A DNA stretch of 38,737 nucleotides from a virus, in IMG/VR virus record IMGVR_UViG_3300029230_000021. One strand, written 5' to 3'. Numbering within the stretch: position 1 is the stretch's first letter; each line of letters begins with the position of its first letter. The translations under genes and the position numbers were made by a program. Positions 1 through 38,737 of the stretch are shown here, one piece after another. Under the pieces are notes generated by a model. That model searched no databases. It saw nothing but the letters and a program-made list of their open reading frames with translations, and was not told where the DNA came from.

Positions 1-99
1 CCCTGAATTTCATCCGTCCAGTTCCTGACCTCCGGCCAGTTGGACGCCATCACGCAGAGCGTGGAATAAACGCCTTGCCACATCGAACGGCGGATATCT
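1..99. repeat. Terminal overlap copy 1 (identical to 38639..38737)
   Basis: Read directly: ccctgaatttcatccgtcc...cggcggatatct occurs at both ends. A 99-nt length is typical of a k-mer overlap in a circular contig. Confidence 0.95.
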
Positions 100-22411: not shown

Positions 22412-22609
22412 CTATATTTCGGTTATTTCCGCGATGTCTGCGAGATCAACAAAAGAGCTCGTCCCTACTACGATATAGTTTATGAACTTATCGTACTCAT
22501 CGTCTAACTCACTGTAAACATGGCATACGCCTTTAACCTCTTTCCCGCTTGTCAATTTCACAGAAACTAATTTGAGGTTAAACGGTGCTATGGAGTGTAT
22601 ATCATACAT
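22412..22609 (-). CDS. Candidate immunity protein for the MuF toxin domain (65 aa, AT-rich)
   Basis: ATG 22609 overlaps the MuF stop by 8 nt (ATGTATGA). MYDIHSIAPFNLKLVSVKLTSGKEVKGVCHVYSELDDEYDKF... Local GC is visibly lower than in the flanks. Confidence 0.5.
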   Translation of the reverse strand: MYDIHSIAPFNLKLVSVKLTSGKEVKGVCHVYSELDDEYDKFINYIVVGTSSFVDLADIAEITEI

Positions 22610-24287
22610 CAGCTTTTGTCCCTTTCTCATCCGCATAAGCGGGAACAATGTGCCAGCCCTTTTTCAGACTATAATGAATCGTAAAACAGGTTGTATCAAT
22701 CCATTCCCCGGTATATAAACCTACTGTCTTACCAATAATCTTGTCGTTGGCAGTTATTAGCTCTGACTGCTTCCATATCCCGGTTTTTTTGTCTCTCAAT
22801 ATGAGCCCTGTACCCGAATACTTATTAAAAAGATCGGTTAGTTCATCCTGCGTTGCGGTAACAACACTCGGGCCGTATAAGCCTTGTCTCTGCTGCCTCT
22901 GGGCATACATATTGTACTCATTCGTGCCGACATAATGCCCGTTCTGCCGTCCGGTGTTCATCTCATGCGAATATTCGTTCTTTATCTTTTGCCGGATAGG
23001 CAGGTCACGGAGATACGCATCAACATTACCGCTTTCACTACCTGTATTATACATTCCGTTGGCTTGCTTGGCAAGCACGTTGTATTGTTTGTTGATCAAC
23101 TTCGACTCAGATACGCCGAACTCCGGGATGTTTCCCCGCTCGAGCTGTTCACGCAGCCCTGCCGCCTTGCTGAATGTGTGGTATTCGTCGTTTAGGCGCT
23201 TATAGCGTACTGCAAGGCTTGTGTATTCCTCGTCGTCGCCGCGCGCCTTGGCGGCTATCGCCTCGCGCTTGACCTTGTGCAGTGCTGTTTCAATCTGCCG
23301 CTGTTTCTGCGTCGCTTCGTACATGGTATATTTCCTGCCCTCAAACTCAAACGGCGGCGGATCGAGGTTTTCTAACTCTTCGTCGGTATATGTCCGCTCT
23401 GCTACGCCCTCAACAAAGGCATGGTACAAATGTCGGCAGTTAACGCCGCATAGGCCGTCCACTTGGTCAAGCCCGCAGACTTCGTATATCGACGGGTATT
23501 TGTCGTTGACGTGTATCGAATACACGCGGCCTTGCCATTTCTTGTGGCTGCTCCACGGATTAGGATAATCCTTATCACGTGCGCCCCTGTGTGCTGTGAC
23601 CTCTCTATAAGGCGTATTAAGCAGCTCGGCGGTCTGCTCGCTATACTGCCGTGACAGTTGCGTTACCCCTGTCATAACCGCCCGGCGCGCGGCGACGTCA
23701 ACGCGGTTATGCCATCCGGAAGCGTATTCGATGTACTGCACTCCGCTGTCTGTGAGCTGCTTTGTCGCCTCTCTGATAGCCACGTTATAGCTGATCCCGC
23801 TCTGCACTTTCATCAGCGCATCATCAAGAACCCGCTCATACATTCCATCGAGGTCGAGCATCTGAATCTGCCCGGCTACACGCACGGCAAAGCCCATTGT
23901 GCGCGTAATGTTGCGCAGCTCGCCGCTTGTCTGCGCAGCTATGGCTGCTATCGTGCTGTCGAACGCTTCACGGTTAAAGCCGGTTTGATCCGTTACGACA
24001 GCATCAAAATAACGCTGATTCTCGCCCAGCGCGGTACTCCAAGCTTTGGAGAACTCCGCGTCGGTGAGCTTCAGCGTTTTCTTGATGTACTTATTGATGT
24101 TATCGAGGTCATAGCCGTTTCTCAACAGTTGCTTTATATGCCGGATCGTCGTTGCCGTCGCCGTCTCGTTATACTTGAACCGGCTGCATATATCGGCTAT
24201 GAGGTAATCGGCAAGCCGTTCATATAGAACAACAATAGCTTCCGGGAGTTCCTGCATAAACTCCGGTGTAATTGGATACTTCGGCAT
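22602..24287 (-). CDS. MuF/SPP1 gp7-family head morphogenesis protein with a C-terminal toxin-like (Ntox50/BECR-like) domain
   Basis: MuF core HKKWQGRVYS...GLCGVNCRHLYHAF. C-terminal GTNEY...YGPS...YSGTGL...IHYSLKKGWHIVPA. Confidence 0.8.
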   Translation of the reverse strand: MPKYPITPEFMQELPEAIVVLYERLADYLIADICSRFKYNETATATTIRHIKQLLRNGYDLDNINKYIKKTLKLTDAEFSKAWSTALGENQRYFDAVVTDQTGFNREAFDSTIAAIAAQTSGELRNITRTMGFAVRVAGQIQMLDLDGMYERVLDDALMKVQSGISYNVAIREATKQLTDSGVQYIEYASGWHNRVDVAARRAVMTGVTQLSRQYSEQTAELLNTPYREVTAHRGARDKDYPNPWSSHKKWQGRVYSIHVNDKYPSIYEVCGLDQVDGLCGVNCRHLYHAFVEGVAERTYTDEELENLDPPPFEFEGRKYTMYEATQKQRQIETALHKVKREAIAAKARGDDEEYTSLAVRYKRLNDEYHTFSKAAGLREQLERGNIPEFGVSESKLINKQYNVLAKQANGMYNTGSESGNVDAYLRDLPIRQKIKNEYSHEMNTGRQNGHYVGTNEYNMYAQRQQRQGLYGPSVVTATQDELTDLFNKYSGTGLILRDKKTGIWKQSELITANDKIIGKTVGLYTGEWIDTTCFTIHYSLKKGWHIVPAYADEKGTKADV

Positions 24288-29461: not shown

Positions 29462-29803
29462 TCACTCATGTGCGTCCTCCTCGTCTTCAAAGCGTTTGAG
29501 GCATTCGCGCAACTCCGCGCATACCCACCCCGCAAGATAGAGAAGTGCTAACACGCCCTCCATGCTATCGGTTCCGCCATACAGCCAATCCACCATTGCA
29601 AACATAACATCCTCATCAGACATGGTTTCCGGAATCTCGTCTGGTTCCATATATCGGCATATAAGCTTTCGCATTAAATCAAGCAGGGCGATGTCTGTAC
29701 CGTTCTCTCCGTATCCGCGCACCCACGTTTTGCCGTCTTTGGCATAGAACAGATTCAGCGACTGTTCTAAATTGCCTTGTGGAGTATTTGTCGTAAGTCT
29801 CAT
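29462..29803 (-). CDS. Hypothetical protein (113 aa from ATG 29803)
   Basis: RBS aaaggaaa. No recognisable domain. Confidence 0.5.
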   Translation of the reverse strand: MRLTTNTPQGNLEQSLNLFYAKDGKTWVRGYGENGTDIALLDLMRKLICRYMEPDEIPETMSDEDVMFAMVDWLYGGTDSMEGVLALLYLAGWVCAELRECLKRFEDEEDAHE

Positions 29804-30060
29804 GTTGTTTTCCTTTCTCCGTGCGAACAAAAATCATTTGGTTCAACGTCAGCATATTGAAAATAACCATTACAAACAAACCCATGGCAACCTTCTTCGT
29901 TATAGTAGTATGCATATTTACAGTCTTTACACCTAACTACAGGGACGGCGTCAATCGTAGGCGCGGTATTAACAAGCGTTGCCGCAAGAACCTTTACGCT
30001 TCGAATTGCCGTGCTTTCTTTTACACGCTTTTTCAATGCATCAGCATCAATCGGTCGCAT
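29800..30060 (-). CDS. Small Cys-rich protein, paralogue 1 (VVRCKDC ... FCSHGE)
   Basis: RBS acggagg before ATG 30060. PVVRCKDCKYAYYYNEEGCHGFVCNG...DFCSHGERK. Confidence 0.55.
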   Translation of the reverse strand: MRPIDADALKKRVKESTAIRSVKVLAATLVNTAPTIDAVPVVRCKDCKYAYYYNEEGCHGFVCNGYFQYADVEPNDFCSHGERKTT

Positions 30061-30307
30061 AGTCACTGCCTCCGTTCTTTCCCTCACCATAAGAACAAAA
30101 ATCATCAAGCTCCATACCAAAACCAAGTCTGCAACAAATTATGTATTTGTTGTCATCTGACATAATGCCGCTCGTACAGTTCTCGCATCTCACCACCGGT
30201 GCAACGTCGGCAGCAGGAAAATTTTCAATGTCAAATTTTACGTTAAAATATCGGCTCGTTCCCTTCATGTAGTCAAGAAACGCCTCCCGCTCTATGTATT
30301 CAGCCAT
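30047..30307 (-). CDS. Small Cys-rich protein, paralogue 2 (VVRCENC ... FCSYGE)
   Basis: PVVRCENCTSGIMSDDNKYIICCRLG...DFCSYGEGK. Same architecture as the neighbouring gene. Confidence 0.55.
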   Translation of the reverse strand: MAEYIEREAFLDYMKGTSRYFNVKFDIENFPAADVAPVVRCENCTSGIMSDDNKYIICCRLGFGMELDDFCSYGEGKNGGSDYATD

Positions 30308-30563
30308 ATAGCGCTCTCCTTTGTCTTACTTTCTCTACTTCTGTGCAAAAACACTGTGCAAGCTTCGTAACACAGTCATCGCACATCCAGTATTCGTGAT
30401 ACTTCGTTGAAAGGCGCTTACCATCGTGATACCCTGTCTCCGGTACTGTTAGTTTGAAGACGAAGTCCATCTTGTGACAGCCGGAGCAAACGCAGTTGTC
30501 CGTATCGCTGATATGGCCTCGAAACTCCACATCTGGGAGATAGTTAACATTAGCTTCGTTCAT
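30300..30563 (-). CDS. Zinc-finger-like hypothetical protein (87 aa)
   Basis: CVCSGCHK ... CDDCVTKLAQCFC. Confidence 0.5.
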   Translation of the reverse strand: MNEANVNYLPDVEFRGHISDTDNCVCSGCHKMDFVFKLTVPETGYHDGKRLSTKYHEYWMCDDCVTKLAQCFCTEVEKVRQRRALYG

Positions 30564-30569
30564 AGTCTG

Positions 30570-31067
30570 TCAGTTCCTCACTATCGTAAAATCGTTCTTG
30601 AGTATTCCGTTGGATAACACAAAGCAGTTGGTGCGTGGCTTGTTGAGCTCTCCGATCTCCGGGATTATAAAGTGTATCCGCTTCCGAAAGAGTATGATCT
30701 GGTGTCCATAGTCAAGCGGTACGCCATCATTCAGAAACAGGAAAGGCAGGATCAACGCGAACGGCAAATTCAAATCCTTCAGGCGCTGGAGGATTTCTTT
30801 CTTGCGGCTGAACGGCGGGTTGCTGACAACAGCATTGCAGCCGGGCGGCGGCTCCGTTGTGAAGAAGTCGCTGCTCGTTGCCGTCACGGTGTGACCGTAC
30901 TCCCGCAGCACGTGCGGAAAGTGGCTCTTCTCTGTATCGAACGGACACCAGATATTCAGATCCGGGATGAGATTGTCTGCGATAATGCGGACGTCTTTCT
31001 CAAGCGTGAAGTATTCATCGCCGCGCACCGAGTTGATTGCCAGCACATCAGCGTTAATGTTGGTCAC
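30570..31067 (-). CDS. Putative N6-adenine DNA methyltransferase (EcoRI-methylase-like small phage type)
   Basis: DEYFT near the N-terminus, CPFD, catalytic VVSNPPFS. GTG start in a GTGA overlap with the upstream frame. Confidence 0.6.
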   Translation of the reverse strand: MTNINADVLAINSVRGDEYFTLEKDVRIIADNLIPDLNIWCPFDTEKSHFPHVLREYGHTVTATSSDFFTTEPPPGCNAVVSNPPFSRKKEILQRLKDLNLPFALILPFLFLNDGVPLDYGHQIILFRKRIHFIIPEIGELNKPRTNCFVLSNGILKNDFTIVRN

Positions 31068-31290
31068 GGTTCATCCTCCTCAATCTCTAACTGCCCCGGC
31101 AGAACGCCGTCCTCCATCCACCAGTGGAATACATCAACGCCAGTAGTACCCATACTCCATGAGCCGTCCATCTTTCCGCGGCGCTGTCCTTGCCGCCGCT
31201 GTCAGTCAGCAGCAGCGGACGGTGATACAGGCGCAGCGACATATCCGACGCCAGCCGCAGCCGCTCCATTGCAGTTTGTTCTTTGTCCAT
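31067..31290 (-). pseudogene. Remnant of a PAPS-reductase/PP-loop family gene (N-terminal 37 aa to SGGKDS, then out-of-frame)
   Basis: MDKEQTAMERLRLASDMSLRLYHRPLLLTDSGGKDSAA, then junk. A different frame (..GVDVFHWWMEDGVLPGQLEIEEDEP*) ends in the GTGA overlap with the methyltransferase start. Confidence 0.55.
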
Positions 31291-31293
31291 CCG

Positions 31294-32376
31294 TTATACG
31301 ATTTCTCCCGTCTCCGGGCCTACTGCCTTGCAGCGATTCAGACGCTTTGCAATCATCTTGCCGAGCAAGCCCGCTTCTTCAAGCGGAACCTCGCGCAGAA
31401 CCTTTGCCTTTGGCGCACGTACTTTGCCGGTTTCGTAGAGCGGTACAACAATCTCTGCCGCGTCCGCCTCAAGTTCAAGCAGTGCTATATCATCCCAACT
31501 CTGCGCATACGCGCAAGCCCAACTTGCTGTTGCCATGTGTATACCCTCTCCGCAATCTTCTTCCGGATCAGCCGTGAAGCCGTTCGCAACTGCCATTTCG
31601 CCGATTTCGTAAAAGAAGCTTTTATCCCAATCCGACACATACTCTGTGTCACGCTTATGCACTGCCTTGTACAGCATGATTTTACCGTCAATGATCGGGA
31701 TATCATTTCCTTCAGCCCAATCCGTGATGTTGCCGGTGTTGTACACGACACGAGCGTTTCCGGACACTTTAACATTGCCCCTCGCCTCGACGGAGCTGTT
31801 GTCCCTCGCCACGACGGAGCTGTTGCCCCGCGCCTCGACGGAGCTGTTGTCCCACGCCTCGACGGAGCTGTTGCCCCTCGCCACGACAAAACTGTTGCCC
31901 CTCGCCTCGACGGAGCTGTTGCCCCTCGCCACGACAAAACTGTTGCCCCTCGCCACGACAAAACTGTTGCCCCTCGCCACGACGGAGCTGTTGCCCCACG
32001 CCACGACGGAGCTGTTGCCCCACGCCTCGACGGAGCTGTTGTCCCACGCCTCGACGGAGCTGTTTTCCCTCGCCACGACGGAGCTGTTGCCCCTCGCCAC
32101 GACGGAGCTGTTGCCCCACGCCTCGACGGAGCTGTTGCCCCGCGCCTCGACGGAGCTGTTGTCCCACGCCTCGACGGAGCTGTTTTCCCTCGCCACGACG
32201 GAGCTGTTGTCCCTCGCCACGACGGAGCTGTTGCCCCTCGCCACGACGGAGTATGCATATCTCTTGTTAACGACCGCCCTGTTGTATAGCGTGCCAAACT
32301 TAATGATTATTCTGCCGTTGTAATCTACCGGTATTGCATCAAGTTCTACCTGACTGGTTACTATTTTCTCGTACAT
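31294..32376 (-). CDS. Tandem 8-residue-repeat (solenoid-like) protein 1 with a C-terminal Cys-Gly-His-motif domain (360 aa)
   Basis: RBS aaaggagaag before ATG 32376. About 20 x [SVVARGNS/SVEAWDNS]. C-terminus LYKAVHKRDTEYVSDWDKSFFYEIG...DCGEGIHMATASWA. Confidence 0.7.
   Translation of the reverse strand: MYEKIVTSQVELDAIPVDYNGRIIIKFGTLYNRAVVNKRYAYSVVARGNSSVVARDNSSVVARENSSVEAWDNSSVEARGNSSVEAWGNSSVVARGNSSVVARENSSVEAWDNSSVEAWGNSSVVAWGNSSVVARGNSFVVARGNSFVVARGNSSVEARGNSFVVARGNSSVEAWDNSSVEARGNSSVVARDNSSVEARGNVKVSGNARVVYNTGNITDWAEGNDIPIIDGKIMLYKAVHKRDTEYVSDWDKSFFYEIGEMAVANGFTADPEEDCGEGIHMATASWACAYAQSWDDIALLELEADAAEIVVPLYETGKVRAPKAKVLREVPLEEAGLLGKMIAKRLNRCKAVGPETGEIV
31777..32251 (-). repeat. 19.8 copies of a 24-nt tandem repeat (coding)
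   Basis: Plus-strand unit gcccctcgcc(a/t)cgacggagctgtt with only a few variable positions. All six frames are open across it. Confidence 0.95.
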
Positions 32377-32389
32377 TTTCTTCTCCTTT

Positions 32390-32821
32390 TCAAAGTCGCC
32401 TTTTGGCGTATTCGGCCATGAGCAGAGCCTCTGCCATGCCGTCGTTATCTTTTCTGCATCTTTCTGTCGGCAGCAGCGACACTCCGGGGAAAAGCCGCTT
32501 GCACACCATGATCGAGCTGTTTTTGTCTCCGGTAATGGAAAATTCCTTTTTCCACTTCTGAGGCTGTACGAGCTCGTAGGATATGCCCATTGCCTCAAGC
32601 ACTCCCTGTACCCACCCGAAGTTCTGACCAAAGTTAAACATACTCGTAACGCCCTGTCCGGGCATCGCGTGAACGTGCTCAAGGCAGCACACCGAATCAG
32701 GCGGGACGCGGGACAGAATTTCTATGTACCGGCTCTTCTCATAGGGGGCAACGGTTATGCCGCCGTCGCGGACCACTGCAAGCCCGCCTTTTGCACCGGG
32801 GTCTATACCTATGTATGTCAA
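32390..32821 (-). CDS. RuvC-like Holliday junction resolvase (phage type)
   Basis: TYIGIDPGAKGGLAV, CLEHVH, DNDGMAEALLMAEYA. Probable TTG start at 32821, 8 nt after AAAGGAG. Confidence 0.75.
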   Translation of the reverse strand: MTYIGIDPGAKGGLAVVRDGGITVAPYEKSRYIEILSRVPPDSVCCLEHVHAMPGQGVTSMFNFGQNFGWVQGVLEAMGISYELVQPQKWKKEFSITGDKNSSIMVCKRLFPGVSLLPTERCRKDNDGMAEALLMAEYAKRRL

Positions 32822-32825
32822 TAAG

Positions 32826-33227
32826 TCATCTCCTTTTGGCACTTAGGAAACCTATATTCATCTGCCCGCGGCTGGTATAAAGCCGAAGTACCGACGCCAC
32901 CGTTGCCGGGATAGCTGCGCTGCGTGCATATTCCAGAACTGCGTCCAGCGTGTCACCGGCCTTGTCCTGTACACAGAGCACCTCGCAGATGTTCGGGATG
33001 TTCTTCAGCGCCTCGCGGTATACATCCTCCGGGCTTTCCCGAACGGCAAGCGCAATGTCGTTGATAAGCTTCCACGCATACGCATTGGCGTTCAGACTGC
33101 GCTTTTTCTTTGCCGGGGATATCTCATACTCCCCCGGCTTAAAGCCGTACACAAAGCGTCGTGCGTCCGGTATCGAAGCGGTAAGTATGAGGTCATTGCC
33201 CATGATCCGGGCGCTCTCAATCTTCAT
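32826..33227 (-). CDS. Hypothetical protein with a weak NinB/Orf-like motif
   Basis: KKRSLNANAYAWKLINDIA resembles the RSLxQNxxxW motif of lambda Orf/NinB. Low certainty. Confidence 0.35.
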   Translation of the reverse strand: MKIESARIMGNDLILTASIPDARRFVYGFKPGEYEISPAKKKRSLNANAYAWKLINDIALAVRESPEDVYREALKNIPNICEVLCVQDKAGDTLDAVLEYARSAAIPATVASVLRLYTSRGQMNIGFLSAKRR

Positions 33228-33780
33228 TCGCACCTCCCGGCAGCGCCGCAAAGCCAAGCTTCCCGGATATTTCGGCCAGCGTGTTTTTTACTCCGGTCGG
33301 CAGCGCCATGTACTCCCGCTCTTTTTCAGCCCTCACCGTGTATGAGCGCTGGAAGTTCGACGCTATGACGCTCTGCACTGTCTCCGCGTCCATCATCGCC
33401 CATTCTTTCAGCTGGTTAGGACTGCCAACGATCCGCTGAACCACCGGCGGGAGCTTGTCAAACTCGTCTTTCGCGTGATAGATTCCGCGCTGTGTAGCTG
33501 CGTTCACAAACTGCCATGCCTCTTGCGGCGTCATGTCCGCGTTGGTCGTCATGCCAATAAGGCGCTGCTTGATAGCCCCCGGCGGCGGCATGAATCTATC
33601 TGCCGACGCGGATATGTGTGCCATCACGGCGGCTTGCACGGCGCTTGCCGGGTCGTCTTCAAAGACCTTAGCCCATATCTTGACCGTGGAGCGGAGCGCA
33701 TCAGCAGATAAGTTCTTGAAGCTGTCCGGATATACCGTCTGCATAATGCCTATGATCTGCGCCGATTCTCGCTCAGTCAT
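33217..33780 (-). CDS. G39P-like replicative helicase loader/inhibitor
   Basis: IIGIMQTVYPDSFKNLSADALRSTVKIWAKVFEDDPASAVQAAV...FMPPPGAI pattern of SPP1 G39P-type loaders. Confidence 0.6.
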   Translation of the reverse strand: MTERESAQIIGIMQTVYPDSFKNLSADALRSTVKIWAKVFEDDPASAVQAAVMAHISASADRFMPPPGAIKQRLIGMTTNADMTPQEAWQFVNAATQRGIYHAKDEFDKLPPVVQRIVGSPNQLKEWAMMDAETVQSVIASNFQRSYTVRAEKEREYMALPTGVKNTLAEISGKLGFAALPGGANED

Positions 33781-34489
33781 CGAAATCCCCCCTCCGTATC
33801 ATTTCGGCTAACCTGTCAGCCGTCGCCACCGGCGCGGGCTGCGTATACTTCCGGTTAAGTCCCCAACCGTCACGGTGGCATTTCCTAACGGTGAGGTTCC
33901 AGTCTTTCCACTTGTTTTTGTTGCCCGTGGACTGCGCCGATTCGTCTACGTAAGCGATGCAGCGGGCAAGTTCGGTTTCTCCGAGGTCTGCAAGCAAGCG
34001 TGAATATTCGTTATCCGTTAGCTTTACCCAGCCATATTGCCCGTGAGCGTGGCGCGTGGGCGCGCTCTCTTTCGGATTCGTATTCGGATTTGGATTCGTA
34101 TTCGGATTGGATTCAGGCGGTGATTCACCGCAGCTCACCGTCGGTGACGGTGGTTCACCGTGAGGCGGTGCAGGAAACCGCGATTTTTTCGTCTGGATTC
34201 TTTGATGCGACTCCCATGTTGGGAAGTATAGGTAGGGCTTTCCGTCCACTTCGTAGAGGCCAACGCAGCCTATACCCGCCAAATCTCGCAGAGCGGCATC
34301 TATATCCTTATTCGTTATCCTGTCCCGTAGGGGGAAGCAAGCGCCTTTGATTATCGCCGGTCTTGCATCCCCTCTGCCGTAGTCGTCCACATACGTAATC
34401 AACGAAATCCAAAGCCGGAATTGGAAGTCTGTCATCCTGTTTACGTCCTCCGACGTGTGGATGCTCTCTTTAATTATCCGGTTCGGCAT
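33773..34489 (-). CDS. Phage replisome organiser (DnaD-like N-terminal domain)
   Basis: FRLWISLITYVDDYGRGDARPAIIKGACFP... Low-complexity linker NPNTNPNPNTNP. Confidence 0.7.
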   Translation of the reverse strand: MPNRIIKESIHTSEDVNRMTDFQFRLWISLITYVDDYGRGDARPAIIKGACFPLRDRITNKDIDAALRDLAGIGCVGLYEVDGKPYLYFPTWESHQRIQTKKSRFPAPPHGEPPSPTVSCGESPPESNPNTNPNPNTNPKESAPTRHAHGQYGWVKLTDNEYSRLLADLGETELARCIAYVDESAQSTGNKNKWKDWNLTVRKCHRDGWGLNRKYTQPAPVATADRLAEMIRRGDFDD

Positions 34490-34701
34490 TCTCGCGCCTC
34501 CAATCTGTACCGTGAATAGCGCGTTGCCTCGCCGTATCTGTTCTTTCCGGTCTCTGTCTCGCCGACTATCGGATAGCCGAGCTTGCGCAAGTCGTTAATG
34601 CGGGAGGCAAGCCGCATTATTCCGTATTCGGTCATTGCCTCCTTGCTCGTTATGCTGCCGTAGTCGGTCAAGTGCCGGATTATTCTTTCGTTCTGTGTCA
34701 T
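34474..34701 (-). CDS. Small winged-helix/HTH protein
   Basis: IIRHLTDYGSITSKEAMTEYGIMRLASRINDLRKLGYPI. Confidence 0.6.
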   Translation of the reverse strand: MTQNERIIRHLTDYGSITSKEAMTEYGIMRLASRINDLRKLGYPIVGETETGKNRYGEATRYSRYRLEARECRTG

Positions 34702-36497: not shown

Positions 36498-37325
36498 TCA
36501 TTCTTCGGGCACTTCCACGATCTCACCGTCTTTGAGCGTATACCATGTATCCGCTTTGTACGTCTCGCCGTCAATCTCGAACGACTTAACGCAAATGCAC
36601 GGACACCCCTCACCGATCCACTCGCCATACTCGGCAAGTGTGCACCAAGTACCTACGGGCGCTTTGATTCGTCCGCGCTTGCCCACACAAGCTACCACAT
36701 TATTAGCGTTTTCAACGGTGATCTGCGCGTCATCGCCGGAGCTGCCGATCTTCGCGTATCTGCCGGAGCTGCCGATCTGCGCGCCATCGCCGGAGCTGCC
36801 GATCTGCGCGCCATCGCCGGAGCTGCCGATCTGCGCGCCATTGCCGGAGCTGCCGATCTGCGCGCCATTGCCGGAGCTGCCGATCTGCGCGCCATTGCCG
36901 GAGCTGCCGATCTTCGCGTCATCGCCGGAGCTGCCGATCTGCGCGCCATCGCTAACATCAACATCTTCCGGTTTCGGCATCTCCTTTATCGTTTTTTCAT
37001 AAAGGAAATCAACGCAAGCTTGTATAAAGCCCTTAAAGCCAAGCTTGAAACCGATTTTTATAGTACTTGTCGCGAACTTTCGCCCGTCGCCCGTGACCGG
37101 CTCGTCGATTGCCTCAACCGTCGTGAACTCGCTGAACTGTCCGTCCGGCTGCACAAGCGGATAATAGTCAAGCGTGTCAAACGGGTTGACGCAGTAGTGC
37201 GTAACACCGGAGCAGCAGATACCGTGACCGTTTTTCTTATAAACGGTATCCTCTTCGTACTTATGCCCACGACATATCAAGCCGGGGTTGTATGCTTTGT
37301 AACCTCTCTCGTTCATTGTTGACAT
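36498..37325 (-). CDS. Tandem 9-residue-repeat (solenoid-like) protein 2 with an N-terminal Cys-Gly-His-motif domain
   Basis: ERGYKAYNPGLICRGHKYEEDTVYKKNGHGICCSGVTHYCVNPFDTLDYY. About 9 x [GxGAQIGSS]. Cys-rich C-terminus. The start is ATG 37331 or 37325. Confidence 0.7.
   Translation of the reverse strand: MSTMNERGYKAYNPGLICRGHKYEEDTVYKKNGHGICCSGVTHYCVNPFDTLDYYPLVQPDGQFSEFTTVEAIDEPVTGDGRKFATSTIKIGFKLGFKGFIQACVDFLYEKTIKEMPKPEDVDVSDGAQIGSSGDDAKIGSSGNGAQIGSSGNGAQIGSSGNGAQIGSSGDGAQIGSSGDGAQIGSSGRYAKIGSSGDDAQITVENANNVVACVGKRGRIKAPVGTWCTLAEYGEWIGEGCPCICVKSFEIDGETYKADTWYTLKDGEIVEVPEE
36720..36952 (-). repeat. 8.6 copies of a 27-nt tandem repeat (coding)
   Basis: Plus-strand unit gatctgcgcgccatcgccggagctgcc. 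The copies differ at 1-4 positions. Confidence 0.95.
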
Positions 37326-37402
37326 ACCCATCCTTTTCGTTTATAATCGAATTTGTTGATATACCCAGCCGCTTTCCGATCTGCTTATCGGGGGCGGCAT
37401 TT

Positions 37403-38638: not shown

Positions 38639-38737
38639 CCCTGAATTTCATCCGTCCAGTTCCTGACCTCCGGCCAGTTGGACGCCATCACGCAGAGCGT
38701 GGAATAAACGCCTTGCCACATCGAACGGCGGATATCT
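38639..38737. repeat. Terminal overlap copy 2 (identical to 1..99)
   Basis: Same 99-nt string as 1..99. Confidence 0.95.

What the first reader, a model, noticed from the sequence alone, without database searches (positions are those of the whole stretch)
31294..32376. Early protein made of ~20 near-identical 8-residue repeats encoded by a 24-nt tandem DNA array
Positions 31777-32251 are 19.8 copies of gcccctcgcc(a/t)cgacggagctgtt, with substitutions confined to a few positions. They translate (minus strand) to S-V-(V/E)-A-(R/W)-(G/D/E)-N-S. The strict 8-residue period, with alternating small and hydrophobic positions and a ladder of R/W and D/E/G residues, suggests a regular beta-solenoid displaying a periodic charged or aromatic surface. 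The array sits between a 45-aa N-terminus and a 150-aa C-terminal domain containing LYKAV...FFYEIG...DCGEGIH. DNA-level identity this high means the copy number can change by slippage or recombination, giving a built-in length-variable protein. The gene lies directly after the RuvC-like resolvase in the early operon, where anti-defence or host-takeover genes usually sit. A DNA-mimic or decoy role is conceivable, but the function is unknown.
Basis: partly seen in the sequence, partly recalled or inferred. Interest (0 to 1): 0.7.

Follow-up and report, generated by a model that had tools for sequence, protein, structure and literature searches.

The report
Length-variable solenoid protein with RIIB-like domain
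A temperate phage of gut Clostridia encodes a real protein in which twenty near-identical 8-residue repeats are predicted to form a rigid beta-helix of evolvable length, attached to a domain related to the C-terminal domain of T4 RIIB, the classic anti-exclusion protein whose mechanism is still unknown; its own function is untested.

Summary
A 24-nt unit repeated 19.9 times (31775-32251) lies in frame in a 360-aa minus-strand gene (32376-31294), 13 nt after a Holliday-junction resolvase in the replication/recombination operon of a ~38.6-kb temperate siphovirus. AlphaFold models the array confidently as a beta-solenoid, one strand per unit.

The C-terminal domain is not an orphan. It is homologous to the C-terminal ~115 residues of T4 RIIB (hhalign 95%, E 3e-8; Foldseek probability 1.0 to many RIIB models; RIIB PHROGs) and belongs with Pfam DUF7666/DUF5758.

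The family is large (over 1,800 hits; gut Clostridia prophages, plus mycobacteriophages such as Che8 gp59). The amino-acid unit is conserved while codons diverge, arrays evolve in concert, and copy number ranges from 3 to 24. Finished mycobacteriophage genomes show about 4 to 20 units.

A second gene in the window (36498-37331) has the reverse layout, which matches Bordetella phage BPP-1 Bbp36, whose repeat region is the published "VR2".

The DNA-mimic idea is not supported: the array is nearly neutral. Best reading: an RIIB-type early effector whose two conserved ends are separated by a stalk tunable by repeat number, probably acting in phage-host or phage-prophage conflict. That function is inferred, not shown. 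The shorter arrays seen in this exact lineage may be assembly collapses.

The parts
31294..32376 (-). Complete gene (360 codons plus stop) for the repeat protein
   Evidence: ORF and translation. More than 1,858 homologs with conserved N- and C-terminal parts. The exact protein is on 7 contigs.
32383..32388 (-). Shine-Dalgarno-like AAGGAG, 6 nt before the ATG; lies in the 13-nt gap after the resolvase stop codon (32390-32392)
   Evidence: Read directly from the sequence.
32251..32376 (-). N-terminal cap, aa 1-42, with the conserved T-x-Q-x-E-L-D-x-A motif
   Evidence: Nearly invariant columns Q9, E11, L12, D13, A14, D18, G21, R22. The motif is also present in Che8 gp59, Redi gp44, ThetaBob gp59 and Squirty gp51. 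AF2 pLDDT 94-96.
31771..32250 (-). Array of 20 octapeptide units (24 nt each), aa 43-202; predicted beta-solenoid stalk
   Evidence: TRF. Unit table and per-column variation. AF2 places a 4-residue strand in every 8 residues, pLDDT about 81-92.
31726..31770 (-). Degenerate last rungs and linker (aa 203-217, KVSGNARVVYNTGNI)
   Evidence: Conserved GN.K.SGNAR.VY motif. The model's only low-confidence stretch before the C-terminal tail is aa 194-197. This lineage lacks an 11-aa SQIVDAxRRGN segment found in 97 of 100 relatives.
31384..31725 (-). RIIB-C-like / DUF7666-DUF5758-type globular domain, aa 218-331 (YKAV, Y-x-IG, C-x-x-G-I-H, ILE-x-E, GKVR, REVP)
   Evidence: hhalign against T4 RIIB aa 195-308: probability 95.1%, E 3.2e-8. 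Foldseek BFVD: 43 hits, mostly RIIB. PHROGs 609, 2886 and 36818. DUF5758 at 27.7 bits for the domain alone, and 19 of 47 relatives hit DUF7666. AF2 pLDDT 93.1, pTM 0.86.
31297..31383 (-). C-terminal helix and tail, aa 332-360
   Evidence: AF2 helix at aa 337-351; low confidence after aa 353.
32390..32842 (-). Context: upstream Holliday-junction resolvase gene in the same operon
   Evidence: phrog_1770, E 1.3e-32.
36498..37331 (-). Second repeat gene of the same class in reverse order: DUF7666 domain (aa 10-104), then 8.6 x 9-residue repeats (array 36720-36952), then a C-terminal tail
   Evidence: TRF. Pfam DUF7666 at 59.1 bits. Same layout as BPP-1 Bbp36 (DUF7666 at 41.7 bits plus the VR2 octapeptides).

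Best explanation
The gene encodes a modular cytoplasmic protein, probably made with the replication and recombination genes during lytic growth. It has three parts: a conserved 42-residue N-terminal cap, a beta-solenoid stalk built from 20 octapeptide units (one beta-strand plus turn each), and a C-terminal globular domain homologous to the C-terminal domain of T4 RIIB (the DUF7666/DUF5758 group). In each unit the V, A, N and S positions are conserved and likely structural. The positions that vary (V/E, R/W, G/D/E) probably face outward. Because the units are about 90% identical in DNA, unequal recombination or slippage adds and removes whole units. Arrays are therefore homogenised within a lineage, and stalk length differs between lineages (3 to about 24 units). 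I propose that the RIIB-like domain is the working end: a binding module with invariant Lys, Gly, Gly and Arg and a C-x-x-G-(I/L)-H motif. The stalk would set the distance, and possibly the angle, between that domain and the N-cap. By analogy with RIIB, which overcomes RexAB exclusion and is itself recognised by host immune sensors, the protein would act in phage-host or phage-prophage conflict, with repeat number as a fast-evolving tuning knob. Shown here: the gene, the array, the homology, the predicted fold, concerted evolution, and copy-number variation in the family. Inferred only: the function, the spacer role, and how many units make one coil.
For: The gene and array are real. Solenoid: AF2 mean pLDDT 86.9, with one 4-residue strand per 8 residues from aa 44 to 190. 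The nearest PDB folds are right-handed parallel beta-helices, though not significantly. Distant relatives show 24- or 27-residue superperiods more often than 16 or 18, which fits three units per coil. RIIB link, by three independent methods: phrog_609 E 1.2e-6 to 2e-7, matching the part of the profile that T4 RIIB's C-terminus occupies; hhalign of the family profile against T4 RIIB aa 195-308, probability 95.1%, E 3.2e-8; Foldseek BFVD probability 1.00, TMq 0.55-0.62, rmsd 2-3 A to many RIIB models. DUF7666/DUF5758 link. Selection on the protein: the amino-acid unit is the same in 15 lineages, while their consensus codons differ mostly at third positions or by serine codon family. Units are 82-96% identical within arrays and average 68% between arrays. 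The same V/E and W/R dimorphism occurs in mycobacteriophage homologs. Copy number: 3-21 units in 99 relatives, always whole units. Arrays that cannot collapse at k of 55 or more still range from 3.4 to 12.2 copies. Finished genomes have about 4-5 (Redi), 10-11 (Che8), 15-16 (ThetaBob) and 19-20 (Squirty) units. Both ends are conserved across phyla. Context: the gene is always among SSB, NinB, ERF, Gam or resolvase genes, with no flanking promoter or terminator consensus. RIIB biology from papers: RIIB counters RexAB by an unknown mechanism (PMC11879866); it triggers CARD-gasdermin systems (PMC10312443); it binds and activates Tmn, with residue 219 decisive (PMC13001434). In my alignment register, residue 219 lies inside the shared domain. 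Precedent for tuning by repeat number: Tweety gp54 (PMC9262239).
Against: No experiment exists for any member of this family. RIIB's own biochemical activity is unknown, so the homology transfers a biological theme and not a mechanism. The window has no RIIA-like partner, and the protein lacks RIIB's N-terminal region. The same domain occurs in giant viruses, so it cannot be specific to Rex-type systems. Copy number shows no preference modulo 3 or modulo 2 (p 0.23 and 0.09), so nothing points to one required geometry. There are no hits to defence-system models. AF2 was run on a monomer, so an intertwined trimer is not excluded. Within this exact phage lineage, the shorter variants (7, 6 and 3 units) are precisely assembler shortcut paths.
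Confidence: 0.55

Rival explanations
1. The solenoid itself is the working surface. The ladder of R/W and E/D/G residues binds a host or phage macromolecule, acting as a decoy, inhibitor or DNA mimic. Copy number would then set avidity or footprint rather than spacing.
For: Variation is confined to three probably outward-facing positions, with a restricted alphabet (V/E, R/W, G/D/E) that is maintained across phyla despite homogenisation. Pentapeptide-repeat solenoids are known DNA mimics (my own knowledge). One BFVD hit is a phage protein named 'Pentapeptide' that carries the same domain.
Against: The array is nearly neutral: 16 acidic and 14 basic residues, net charge -2.5, pI 5.2. That is unlike DNA mimics. 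Copy number ranges continuously from 3 to 21, and some relatives have degenerate repeats, which argues against a fixed binding footprint. Both terminal modules are more conserved than the surface positions.
Confidence: 0.15
2. The octapeptide array forms an intertwined homotrimeric beta-helix like the C-terminal needle of T4 gp5 (V-x-G-x-x-x-x-x octapeptides). This would give a long rigid rod carrying three RIIB-like heads, possibly at the membrane.
For: The period is 8 residues, with V-x-A (a small residue two positions after V) resembling V-x-G. There are PHROG hits to baseplate hub/gp5 families: phrog_430 E 2.1e-6, phrog_27932 E 2.9e-4. RIIB is described as membrane-associated (PMC13001434).
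Against: AF2 models a confident single-chain solenoid. The gene is in the replication module and not the tail module. E-values for repeats against repeats are inflated. No tool for oligomer prediction was available, so this was not tested.
Confidence: 0.1
3. The array is mainly a DNA-level feature (replication-origin iterons or a recombination hotspot), or a neutral expansion that encodes a disordered linker.
For: It lies in the replication module, and repeats inside phage replication genes often serve as origins (my own knowledge). All six reading frames are open across the array. The authors of the Tweety genome paper suggested that such repeats are typical of unstructured proteins (PMC2884959).
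Against: The amino-acid unit is conserved across lineages and phyla while synonymous sites and serine codon families diverge. Length changes are always whole units in frame. AF2 predicts ordered strands. The gene is not next to an initiator in many relatives.
Confidence: 0.05
4. The 20-copy array is an artefact of short-read assembly.
For: Arrays of this family break assemblies: about 10 of 32 MAG loci end at the array. Near-identical contigs carry 7, 6 or 3 units.
Against: The longest internal exact repeat (67 nt) is shorter than the inferred k of 99. The identical 20-unit protein is on 7 contigs. Assemblers collapse arrays rather than expand them. Arrays of 19.6 to 23.8 units occur in other lineages, and Squirty, a finished genome, has about 19-20.
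Confidence: 0.03

Closest known systems
T4 RIIB (rIIB, 'protector from prophage-induced early lysis'; AAD42649.1)
   Same: The C-terminal ~115-residue domain is homologous: shared K of (Y/W)K(A/V)V, G, C-x-x-G-(I/L)-H and K-x-R. Both are non-structural genes; RIIB is reported to be expressed at the early-to-middle stage (PMC13001434).
   Different: The window protein has no HTH-like N-terminal region and no RIIA partner. It has a beta-solenoid in place of RIIB's N-terminal two-thirds. It comes from a temperate siphovirus of Gram-positive Clostridia, not a lytic phage of Proteobacteria. T4 RIIB does not hit Pfam DUF7666. Its function is untested.
Mycobacterium phage Che8 gp59 and relatives (ThetaBob gp59, Squirty gp51, Redi gp44, SkinnyPete gp38; Gordonia phage Spooky gp76)
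   Same: Same full architecture: Q-x-ELD N-cap, G-S-A-(H/R)-V-(V/E)-A-(W/R) octapeptides, and a C-terminal DUF7666 domain (46.8 bits). Copy number ranges from about 4 to 20 in finished genomes.
   Different: Only about 30-40% identity. The hosts are Actinobacteria. All are annotated 'hypothetical protein', and I found no published study of them.
Bordetella phage BPP-1 Bbp36 with 'variable region 2' (VR2)
   Same: A DUF7666 domain (41.7 bits) plus a 24-bp (octapeptide) tandem array. PMC2884959, citing Liu et al. 2002 and 2004, says the element is repeated 9-20 times depending on the isolate, and that the gene is non-essential and of unknown function.
   Different: The domain order is reversed (domain, then repeats, then tail), as in the window's gene 2 and unlike gene 1. 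The repeat sequence is unrelated (GTATAGYR).
Mycobacteriophage Tweety gp54 (equivalent to Che8 gp57), a tetrapeptide-repeat counter-defence protein
   Same: An early gene with unique ends flanking a GC-rich tandem repeat whose number varies. Escape mutants with more or fewer repeats tune it to neutralise Phrann gp29/gp30 (PMC9262239). This is the best experimental precedent for the proposed 'tunable spacer' idea.
   Different: It is not homologous: hhalign finds nothing and there is no DUF7666. Its repeats are A-A-x-x. In Che8 it lies two genes upstream of the true homolog, gp59.
Pfam DUF7666 (PF24703) and DUF5758 (PF19062)
   Same: The C-terminal domain scores 27.7 bits on DUF5758 when scanned alone. 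Of 47 relatives, 19 hit DUF7666 and 16 hit DUF5758.
   Different: The full-length protein is below both gathering cutoffs. These are domains of unknown function, and no paper in the held library mentions either.
Right-handed parallel beta-helices, and the T4 gp5 C-terminal octapeptide beta-helix
   Same: A regular strand-turn repeat. The weak best PDB matches are pectate lyases and tailspikes. There are PHROG hits to gp5-type families.
   Different: No significant structural match (best E 0.09). There is no catalytic or virion context. The consensus differs from V-x-G-x-x-x-x-x.

Membership tests
RIIB (T4 rIIB type) | Homology to the RIIB C-terminal domain | tested here: met
   hhalign 95.1%, E 3.2e-8, to T4 RIIB aa 195-308. 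Foldseek BFVD probability 1.00 to many RIIB models. phrog_609, phrog_2886 and phrog_36818.
RIIB (T4 rIIB type) | Full-length RIIB architecture, including the N-terminal (HTH-like) region | tested here: not met
   The matches cover only aa 217-331. The N-terminal 215 residues are a cap plus solenoid. T4 RIIB's N-terminus gives HTH-type hits that are absent here.
RIIB (T4 rIIB type) | Encoded in an operon with rIIA | tested here: not met
   No RIIA-like ORF was found among the large ORFs checked, which are tape measure, minor head protein, integrase and endolysin. The neighbours are a resolvase and a methyltransferase-like ORF. The remaining small ORFs were not all scanned.
RIIB (T4 rIIB type) | Needed to overcome RexAB-type exclusion, or gives a rapid-lysis phenotype | not testable with these tools
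   Requires genetics in the unknown Clostridia host.
Pfam DUF7666 / DUF5758 | Score at or above the curated gathering cutoff | tested here: inconclusive
   Full protein: DUF5758 25.5 bits against a cutoff of 26.9; DUF7666 15.7 against 27. Domain alone: DUF5758 27.7 against 26.9. Relatives P0105, P0120 and Che8 gp59 pass DUF7666.
Variable tandem-repeat phage proteins of the DUF7666 class (BPP-1 Bbp36/VR2 type) | DUF7666-type domain joined to an in-frame tandem peptide array whose copy number differs between related phages | tested here: met
   Gene 1 has the reversed domain order; gene 2 has the Bbp36 order.
Tweety gp54 family | Sequence homology of the flanking domains | tested here: not met
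   hhalign of the family profile against Che8 gp57: no match. No shared Pfam domain.
Beta-solenoid / parallel beta-helix repeat proteins | One beta-strand per repeat, stacked into a helix | tested here: met
   Prediction only: AF2 pLDDT about 81-92 over the array, with strands every 8 residues. No significant PDB match.
Pentapeptide-repeat proteins / DNA mimics | 5-residue period with A(D/N)LXX consensus, and a strongly acidic surface | tested here: not met
   The period is 8. The array has net charge -2.5 and pI 5.2.
T4 gp5-type triple-stranded beta-helix | Intertwined homotrimer of V-x-G-x-x-x-x-x octapeptides in a baseplate protein | not testable with these tools
   The period matches and there are weak PHROG hits. 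However, oligomeric state cannot be predicted here, and the genomic context is the replication module and not the tail.

The most novel reading that the evidence does not exclude
The RIIB C-terminal domain, DUF7666 and DUF5758 are one ancient viral module. In many temperate phages of Clostridia, Actinobacteria and Betaproteobacteria, this module is mounted on a beta-solenoid whose length is reset by repeat slippage. On this reading the class is a general, rapidly tunable counter-defence or immune-evasion device. It would tie together three old puzzles: what RIIB does, what BPP-1 VR2 is for, and why phage early genes carry variable repeats. It would also provide small RIIA-independent models for working out the RIIB domain's activity.
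Probability: 0.25. Interest if true: 0.8.

Novelty: new variant of a known kind. Interest (0 to 1): 0.6.

Why it matters
rIIB is one of the most famous genes in genetics, yet the papers read here still call its mechanism unclear after about 70 years. Recent work makes RIIB both a counter-defence factor (against RexAB) and a trigger recognised by host immune systems (CARD-gasdermin, Tmn).

If its C-terminal domain is a widespread, portable module that works without RIIA, fused to a simple stalk of variable length, then the domain can be studied in much simpler proteins and in cultured mycobacteriophages such as Che8, Squirty and Redi. Natural copy-number series would serve as ready-made length variants.

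The result also gives a family assignment to BPP-1 VR2/Bbp36, and to more than a thousand 'hypothetical proteins' of gut Clostridia prophages.

On the practical side, these arrays often break or may collapse short-read assemblies, so copy numbers taken from metagenomes should not be trusted without long reads.

Tried and rejected
1. DNA similarity to deposited phages: megablast of 30000-34500 found nothing.

2. PDB by sequence: the domain profile had 0 hits at E up to 10.

3. PDB by fold. The whole chain gave only generic beta-helices (best E 0.09). The domain alone gave nothing significant. Its top weak hits were Arr and Arr-2 rifampin ADP-ribosyltransferases (E 0.17-0.78, TM about 0.3), plus CNFy and IcmQ, which I recall contain ART-like domains. 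I considered an ADP-ribosyltransferase fold and did not adopt it. The scores are in the random range, and only K, G, G and R are invariant in the family; Cys is above 90% and His is sometimes N or Y.

4. Paralogy of gene 1 and gene 2: pairwise BLASTP and hhalign against the single gene 2 sequence found nothing. The link rests only on both families reaching Pfam DUF7666.

5. Gene 2 against Bbp36 by BLASTP: not significant. The similarity is in architecture plus the shared DUF7666 domain.

6. Tweety gp54 homology, recalled from memory: tested and rejected.

7. Defence-system models (PADLOC) and NCBIfam: no meaningful hit for gene 1.

8. Copy number modulo 3 or 2 as a signature of a required orientation: no significant bias.

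9. Conserved partner gene: gene 2 is not found near relatives of gene 1.

10. Literature: no paper mentions DUF7666 or DUF5758, and none was found on octapeptide-repeat phage proteins of this type. The Girr cytotoxicity screen does not mention the gene. Liu et al. 2004 and Dedrick et al. 2017 are not held.

11. Solenoid geometry (units per coil, handedness) could not be read, because model coordinates are not exposed.
Full report
OBSERVATION. Tandem Repeats Finder reports an array at 31775-32251 with period 24, 19.9 copies, 90% matches and no indels (score 709). On the minus strand it is in frame with a 360-codon gene that starts at ATG 32376. AAGGAG lies 6 nt upstream, in the 13-nt gap after the preceding gene's stop, and the gene ends at 31294. 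The longer ORF listed at 31294-32682 is a TTG extension that overlaps the upstream gene. The 20 units read S-V-(V/E)-A-(R/W)-(G/D/E)-N-S. Only nucleotide columns 2-3, 8, 13, 17-18 and 24 vary among the first 19 units, so variation falls on unit residues 1, 3, 5 and 6, plus two synonymous sites. The array is 67.5% G+C against 52% for the window. The window has a 99-nt terminal overlap, consistent with a circular assembly at k of about 99. The longest exact repeat inside the array is 67 nt, so the 20-unit path is unambiguous at that k. The identical protein is on record on 7 contigs, the longest 143.8 kb.

CONTEXT. A 99.9%-identical contig (L001) and PHROG scans show a temperate siphovirus. It carries an integrase, HTH repressors, a DUF7666 repeat gene, Gam-like/Gp157, ERF, SSB, a replication initiator, a helicase loader, NinB/Orf and a Holliday-junction resolvase (phrog_1770, E 1.3e-32). 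Then comes this gene, followed by a methyltransferase-like ORF, dUTPase, terminase, an SPP1-type portal, capsid, tape measure and endolysin. No promoter or terminator consensus on the coding strand flanks the gene.

FAMILY. The protein has more than 1,858 database relatives, nearly all on ~40-kb metagenomic contigs or labelled 'MAG TPA Caudoviricetes', and none carries an informative name. The N-terminal 42 residues and the C-terminal ~158 residues are conserved. The middle is N-S-S-V-x-A-x-(G/D/E) repeated a variable number of times. A genome scan places relatives in gut Clostridia MAGs (Oscillospiraceae, Lachnospiraceae, Ruminococcus, Acutalibacteraceae), always among SSB, NinB, ERF, Gam or resolvase genes. 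An exhaustive search with the C-terminal domain alone finds 342 representatives at the 50% identity level. The domain is almost always C-terminal and is preceded by 8-residue or 9-residue repeats that range from perfect to degenerate. So a repeat region followed by this domain is an old architecture.

STRUCTURE (predicted). AlphaFold2 with a 63-sequence alignment gives mean pLDDT 86.9. A 4-residue strand occurs in every 8-residue unit from residue 44 to 190, and the only dip before the C-terminal tail is at residues 194-197. Foldseek against the PDB finds nothing significant; the nearest folds are right-handed parallel beta-helices. In distant relatives the best superperiods are 24 or 27 residues more often than 16 or 18. 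That suggests three units per coil, which would make 20 units roughly 6-7 coils. An intertwined trimer like T4 gp5C remains possible (PHROG gp5 hits) and could not be tested.

THE C-TERMINAL DOMAIN IS RIIB-LIKE. Folded alone with a diverse alignment, it gives pLDDT 93.1 and pTM 0.86. It has no PDB relative by sequence or by fold. Against predicted viral structures there are 43 hits at E of 1e-3 or better. The top hits are mostly named RIIB, 'protector from prophage-induced early lysis' or rIIB-like, with probability 1.00, TMq 0.55-0.62 and rmsd 2-3 A over ~120 columns. Further down are DUF7666 proteins, including two from giant viruses, and a phage protein named 'Pentapeptide'. Independently, the protein hits RIIB PHROGs (phrog_609, E 1.2e-6 to 2e-7), in the segment of those profiles occupied by the C-terminus of T4 RIIB, which is itself the core of those families. 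The family profile aligns to T4 RIIB residues 195-308 of 312 with hhalign probability 95.1% and E 3.2e-8. The alignment conserves the K of (Y/W)K(A/V)V, a G, C-x-x-G-(I/L)-H and K-x-R. Pfam places the domain at the edge of DUF5758 and DUF7666: 27.7 bits for the domain alone, and 19 and 16 of 47 relatives hit DUF7666 and DUF5758 respectively. T4 RIIB itself hits neither model. Only K, G, G and R are invariant in the family, which suggests a binding module rather than an enzyme; this is an inference.

ARRAY DYNAMICS. Across 15 lineages, units are 82-96% identical within an array but average 68% between arrays. Consensus units differ mainly at third codon positions or by serine codon family (TCN against AGY), with each change fixed through a whole array, while the amino-acid unit and its V/E, R/W and G/D/E alternatives stay the same. 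This is concerted evolution under purifying selection on the protein. In 99 of 100 close relatives the spacing between conserved anchors differs from the window by whole units, after allowing for an 11-residue segment that this lineage lacks. Counts run continuously from 3 to 21 with a median of 12, and show no bias modulo 3 or modulo 2.

HOW FAR COPY NUMBERS CAN BE TRUSTED. About 10 of 32 MAG loci end at the array. The near-identical contigs with 7, 6 and 3 units are exactly the paths through the window array's longest exact repeats: 61 nt at a shift of 13 units, and 42 nt at shifts of 6, 8 and 17 units. Heterogeneity within this lineage is therefore unproven. Variation in the family is nevertheless real. 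Arrays whose internal repeats are 47 nt or shorter still span 3.4 to 12.2 copies. Finished genomes of cultured mycobacteriophages, with flanks 90-94% identical, carry about 4-5 (Redi gp44), 10-11 (Che8 gp59), 15-16 (ThetaBob gp59) and 19-20 (Squirty gp51) units. Soul22 has a decayed copy.

WHAT IS ALREADY KNOWN. Che8 gp59 is a full-length homolog: Q-x-ELD cap, GSAHVVAW units and DUF7666 at 46.8 bits. It is annotated hypothetical. I recalled Tweety gp54, a repeat protein whose repeat number tunes counter-defence against Phrann gp29/gp30 (PMC9262239, PMC2884959). Testing showed that it corresponds to Che8 gp57, two genes upstream, and is unrelated in sequence. It is an analogy and not a relative. 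The same 2007 paper points to VR2 of Bordetella phage BPP-1, a 24-bp element repeated 9-20 times in the non-essential gene bbp36. Bbp36 turns out to have DUF7666 (41.7 bits) at its N-terminus, then GTATAGYR octapeptides, then a tail. That is the layout of the window's second repeat gene at 36498-37331: DUF7666 at 59.1 bits, then 8.6 nine-residue units at 36720-36952. This phage therefore carries both domain orders of one protein class.

On RIIB itself, from the papers read: divergent RIIA/RIIB pairs all counter RexAB, and that paper calls the rII module poorly understood (PMC11879866). RIIB alone triggers CARD-gasdermin systems (PMC10312443). T2 RIIB binds and activates Tmn, with residue 219 decisive (PMC13001434). 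In my alignment register, residue 219 lies four residues after the invariant Lys, inside the shared domain.

INTERPRETATION. The best-supported reading is a modular early protein: a conserved N-cap, a solenoid stalk whose length is set by repeat number, and an RIIB-type domain as the working end, acting in phage-host or phage-prophage conflict. Homology, predicted fold, selection and copy-number variation are shown here. The function and the spacer role are inferred. Several points count against over-reading it: there is no RIIA partner and no RIIB N-terminal region, RIIB's own activity is unknown, the domain also occurs in giant viruses, and no preferred copy-number phase was found. The DNA-mimic proposal is not supported, because the array has net charge -2.5 and pI 5.2. 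The other rival readings (a binding surface, a gp5-like trimer, a DNA-level element, an assembly artefact) are listed with their evidence in the rivals section.

NOVELTY. Variable tandem repeats in non-structural phage genes are documented (VR2, Tweety gp54), and the domain is catalogued as a DUF. I could not find three things in the held literature: the link from DUF7666/DUF5758 to the RIIB C-terminal domain, the assignment of Bbp36 and Che8 gp59 to this class, and the solenoid-plus-RIIB-domain architecture in temperate phages of Gram-positive bacteria. I rate it a new variant of a known kind, of moderate to high interest, mainly because it offers simple, RIIA-independent handles on the RIIB domain.

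Noticed in passing
window 36498-37331 (array 36720-36952): A second tandem-repeat gene: DUF7666 domain (59.1 bits) at the N-terminus, 8.6 x 27-nt (9-residue, SSGDGAQIG) repeats, then a C-terminal tail (phrog_27197). It has the same layout as Bordetella phage BPP-1 Bbp36/VR2. The near-identical contig L001 has one unit fewer. The repeat region also gives a sub-threshold hit to E. coli YdhT (NF007410, E 6.8e-15).
   Followed up: partly
window 1-99 and 38639-38737: A 99-nt exact terminal direct overlap, so the window is probably a circular assembly of a complete ~38.6-kb phage genome made at k of about 99.
   Followed up: yes
L006, L015, L018, L019, L022, L023, L025, L026, L030, L032 (locus starts): In about 10 of 32 MAG loci the contig ends at or inside the octapeptide array. 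These arrays commonly break short-read assemblies, so metagenomic copy numbers are unreliable.
   Followed up: yes
window 31087-31290 and 30570-31067: Directly downstream, a 67-aa ORF carries an SGGKDS motif that I recognise from memory as PP-loop-like (PAPS-reductase type); this was not tested. A 165-aa ORF matches only positions 213-348 of a 458-position DNA-methyltransferase profile (phrog_799) and contains NPPF. Both may be remnants of larger genes.
   Followed up: no
window 31726-31794: This lineage lacks an 11-residue segment (SQIVDAxRRGN) that follows the array in 97 of 100 close relatives. The last unit runs straight into GNVKVSGNAR.
   Followed up: partly
window 34071-34114: A hexanucleotide (also scored as an 18-nt) repeat inside the replication-initiator gene encodes an N-P-N-T-N-P linker. 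It might alternatively mark an origin region.
   Followed up: no
window 22602-24287: The minor head protein (phrog_581) has, in the identical gene of L001, a precomputed hit to the toxin domain Ntox50 (PF15542) in addition to Phage_min_cap2.
   Followed up: no
window 29800-30563: Three consecutive small ORFs (108, 86 and 87 aa). At least two look like paralogs, sharing VVRC(K/E)(D/N)C ... DFCS(H/Y)GE cysteine motifs. No family hit was found for the two that were scanned (30047-30307 and 30300-30563).
   Followed up: no
L036 (Mycobacterium phage Che8) 1671-2534 and 2890-3696: Che8 carries two unrelated variable-repeat proteins two genes apart: gp57 (the Tweety gp54 type, SAAW/SAAG tetrapeptides) and gp59 (octapeptides plus DUF7666).
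   Followed up: partly
L040 (Mycobacterium phage Soul22) 332-811: The Soul22 homolog (gp60) is a decayed copy. Its N-terminal part is read in another frame of the array and joins the C-terminal domain directly at YKAV.
   Followed up: partly
window 31384-31725 (protein aa 218-331): The weak top PDB fold hits of the domain include Arr and Arr-2 rifampin ADP-ribosyltransferases, plus CNFy and IcmQ, which I recall contain ADP-ribosyltransferase-like domains. All have TM of about 0.3 and E of 0.17 or worse. The family also has a conserved E-x-E next to a beta-strand. The scores are not significant, so this is only a lead.
   Followed up: partly
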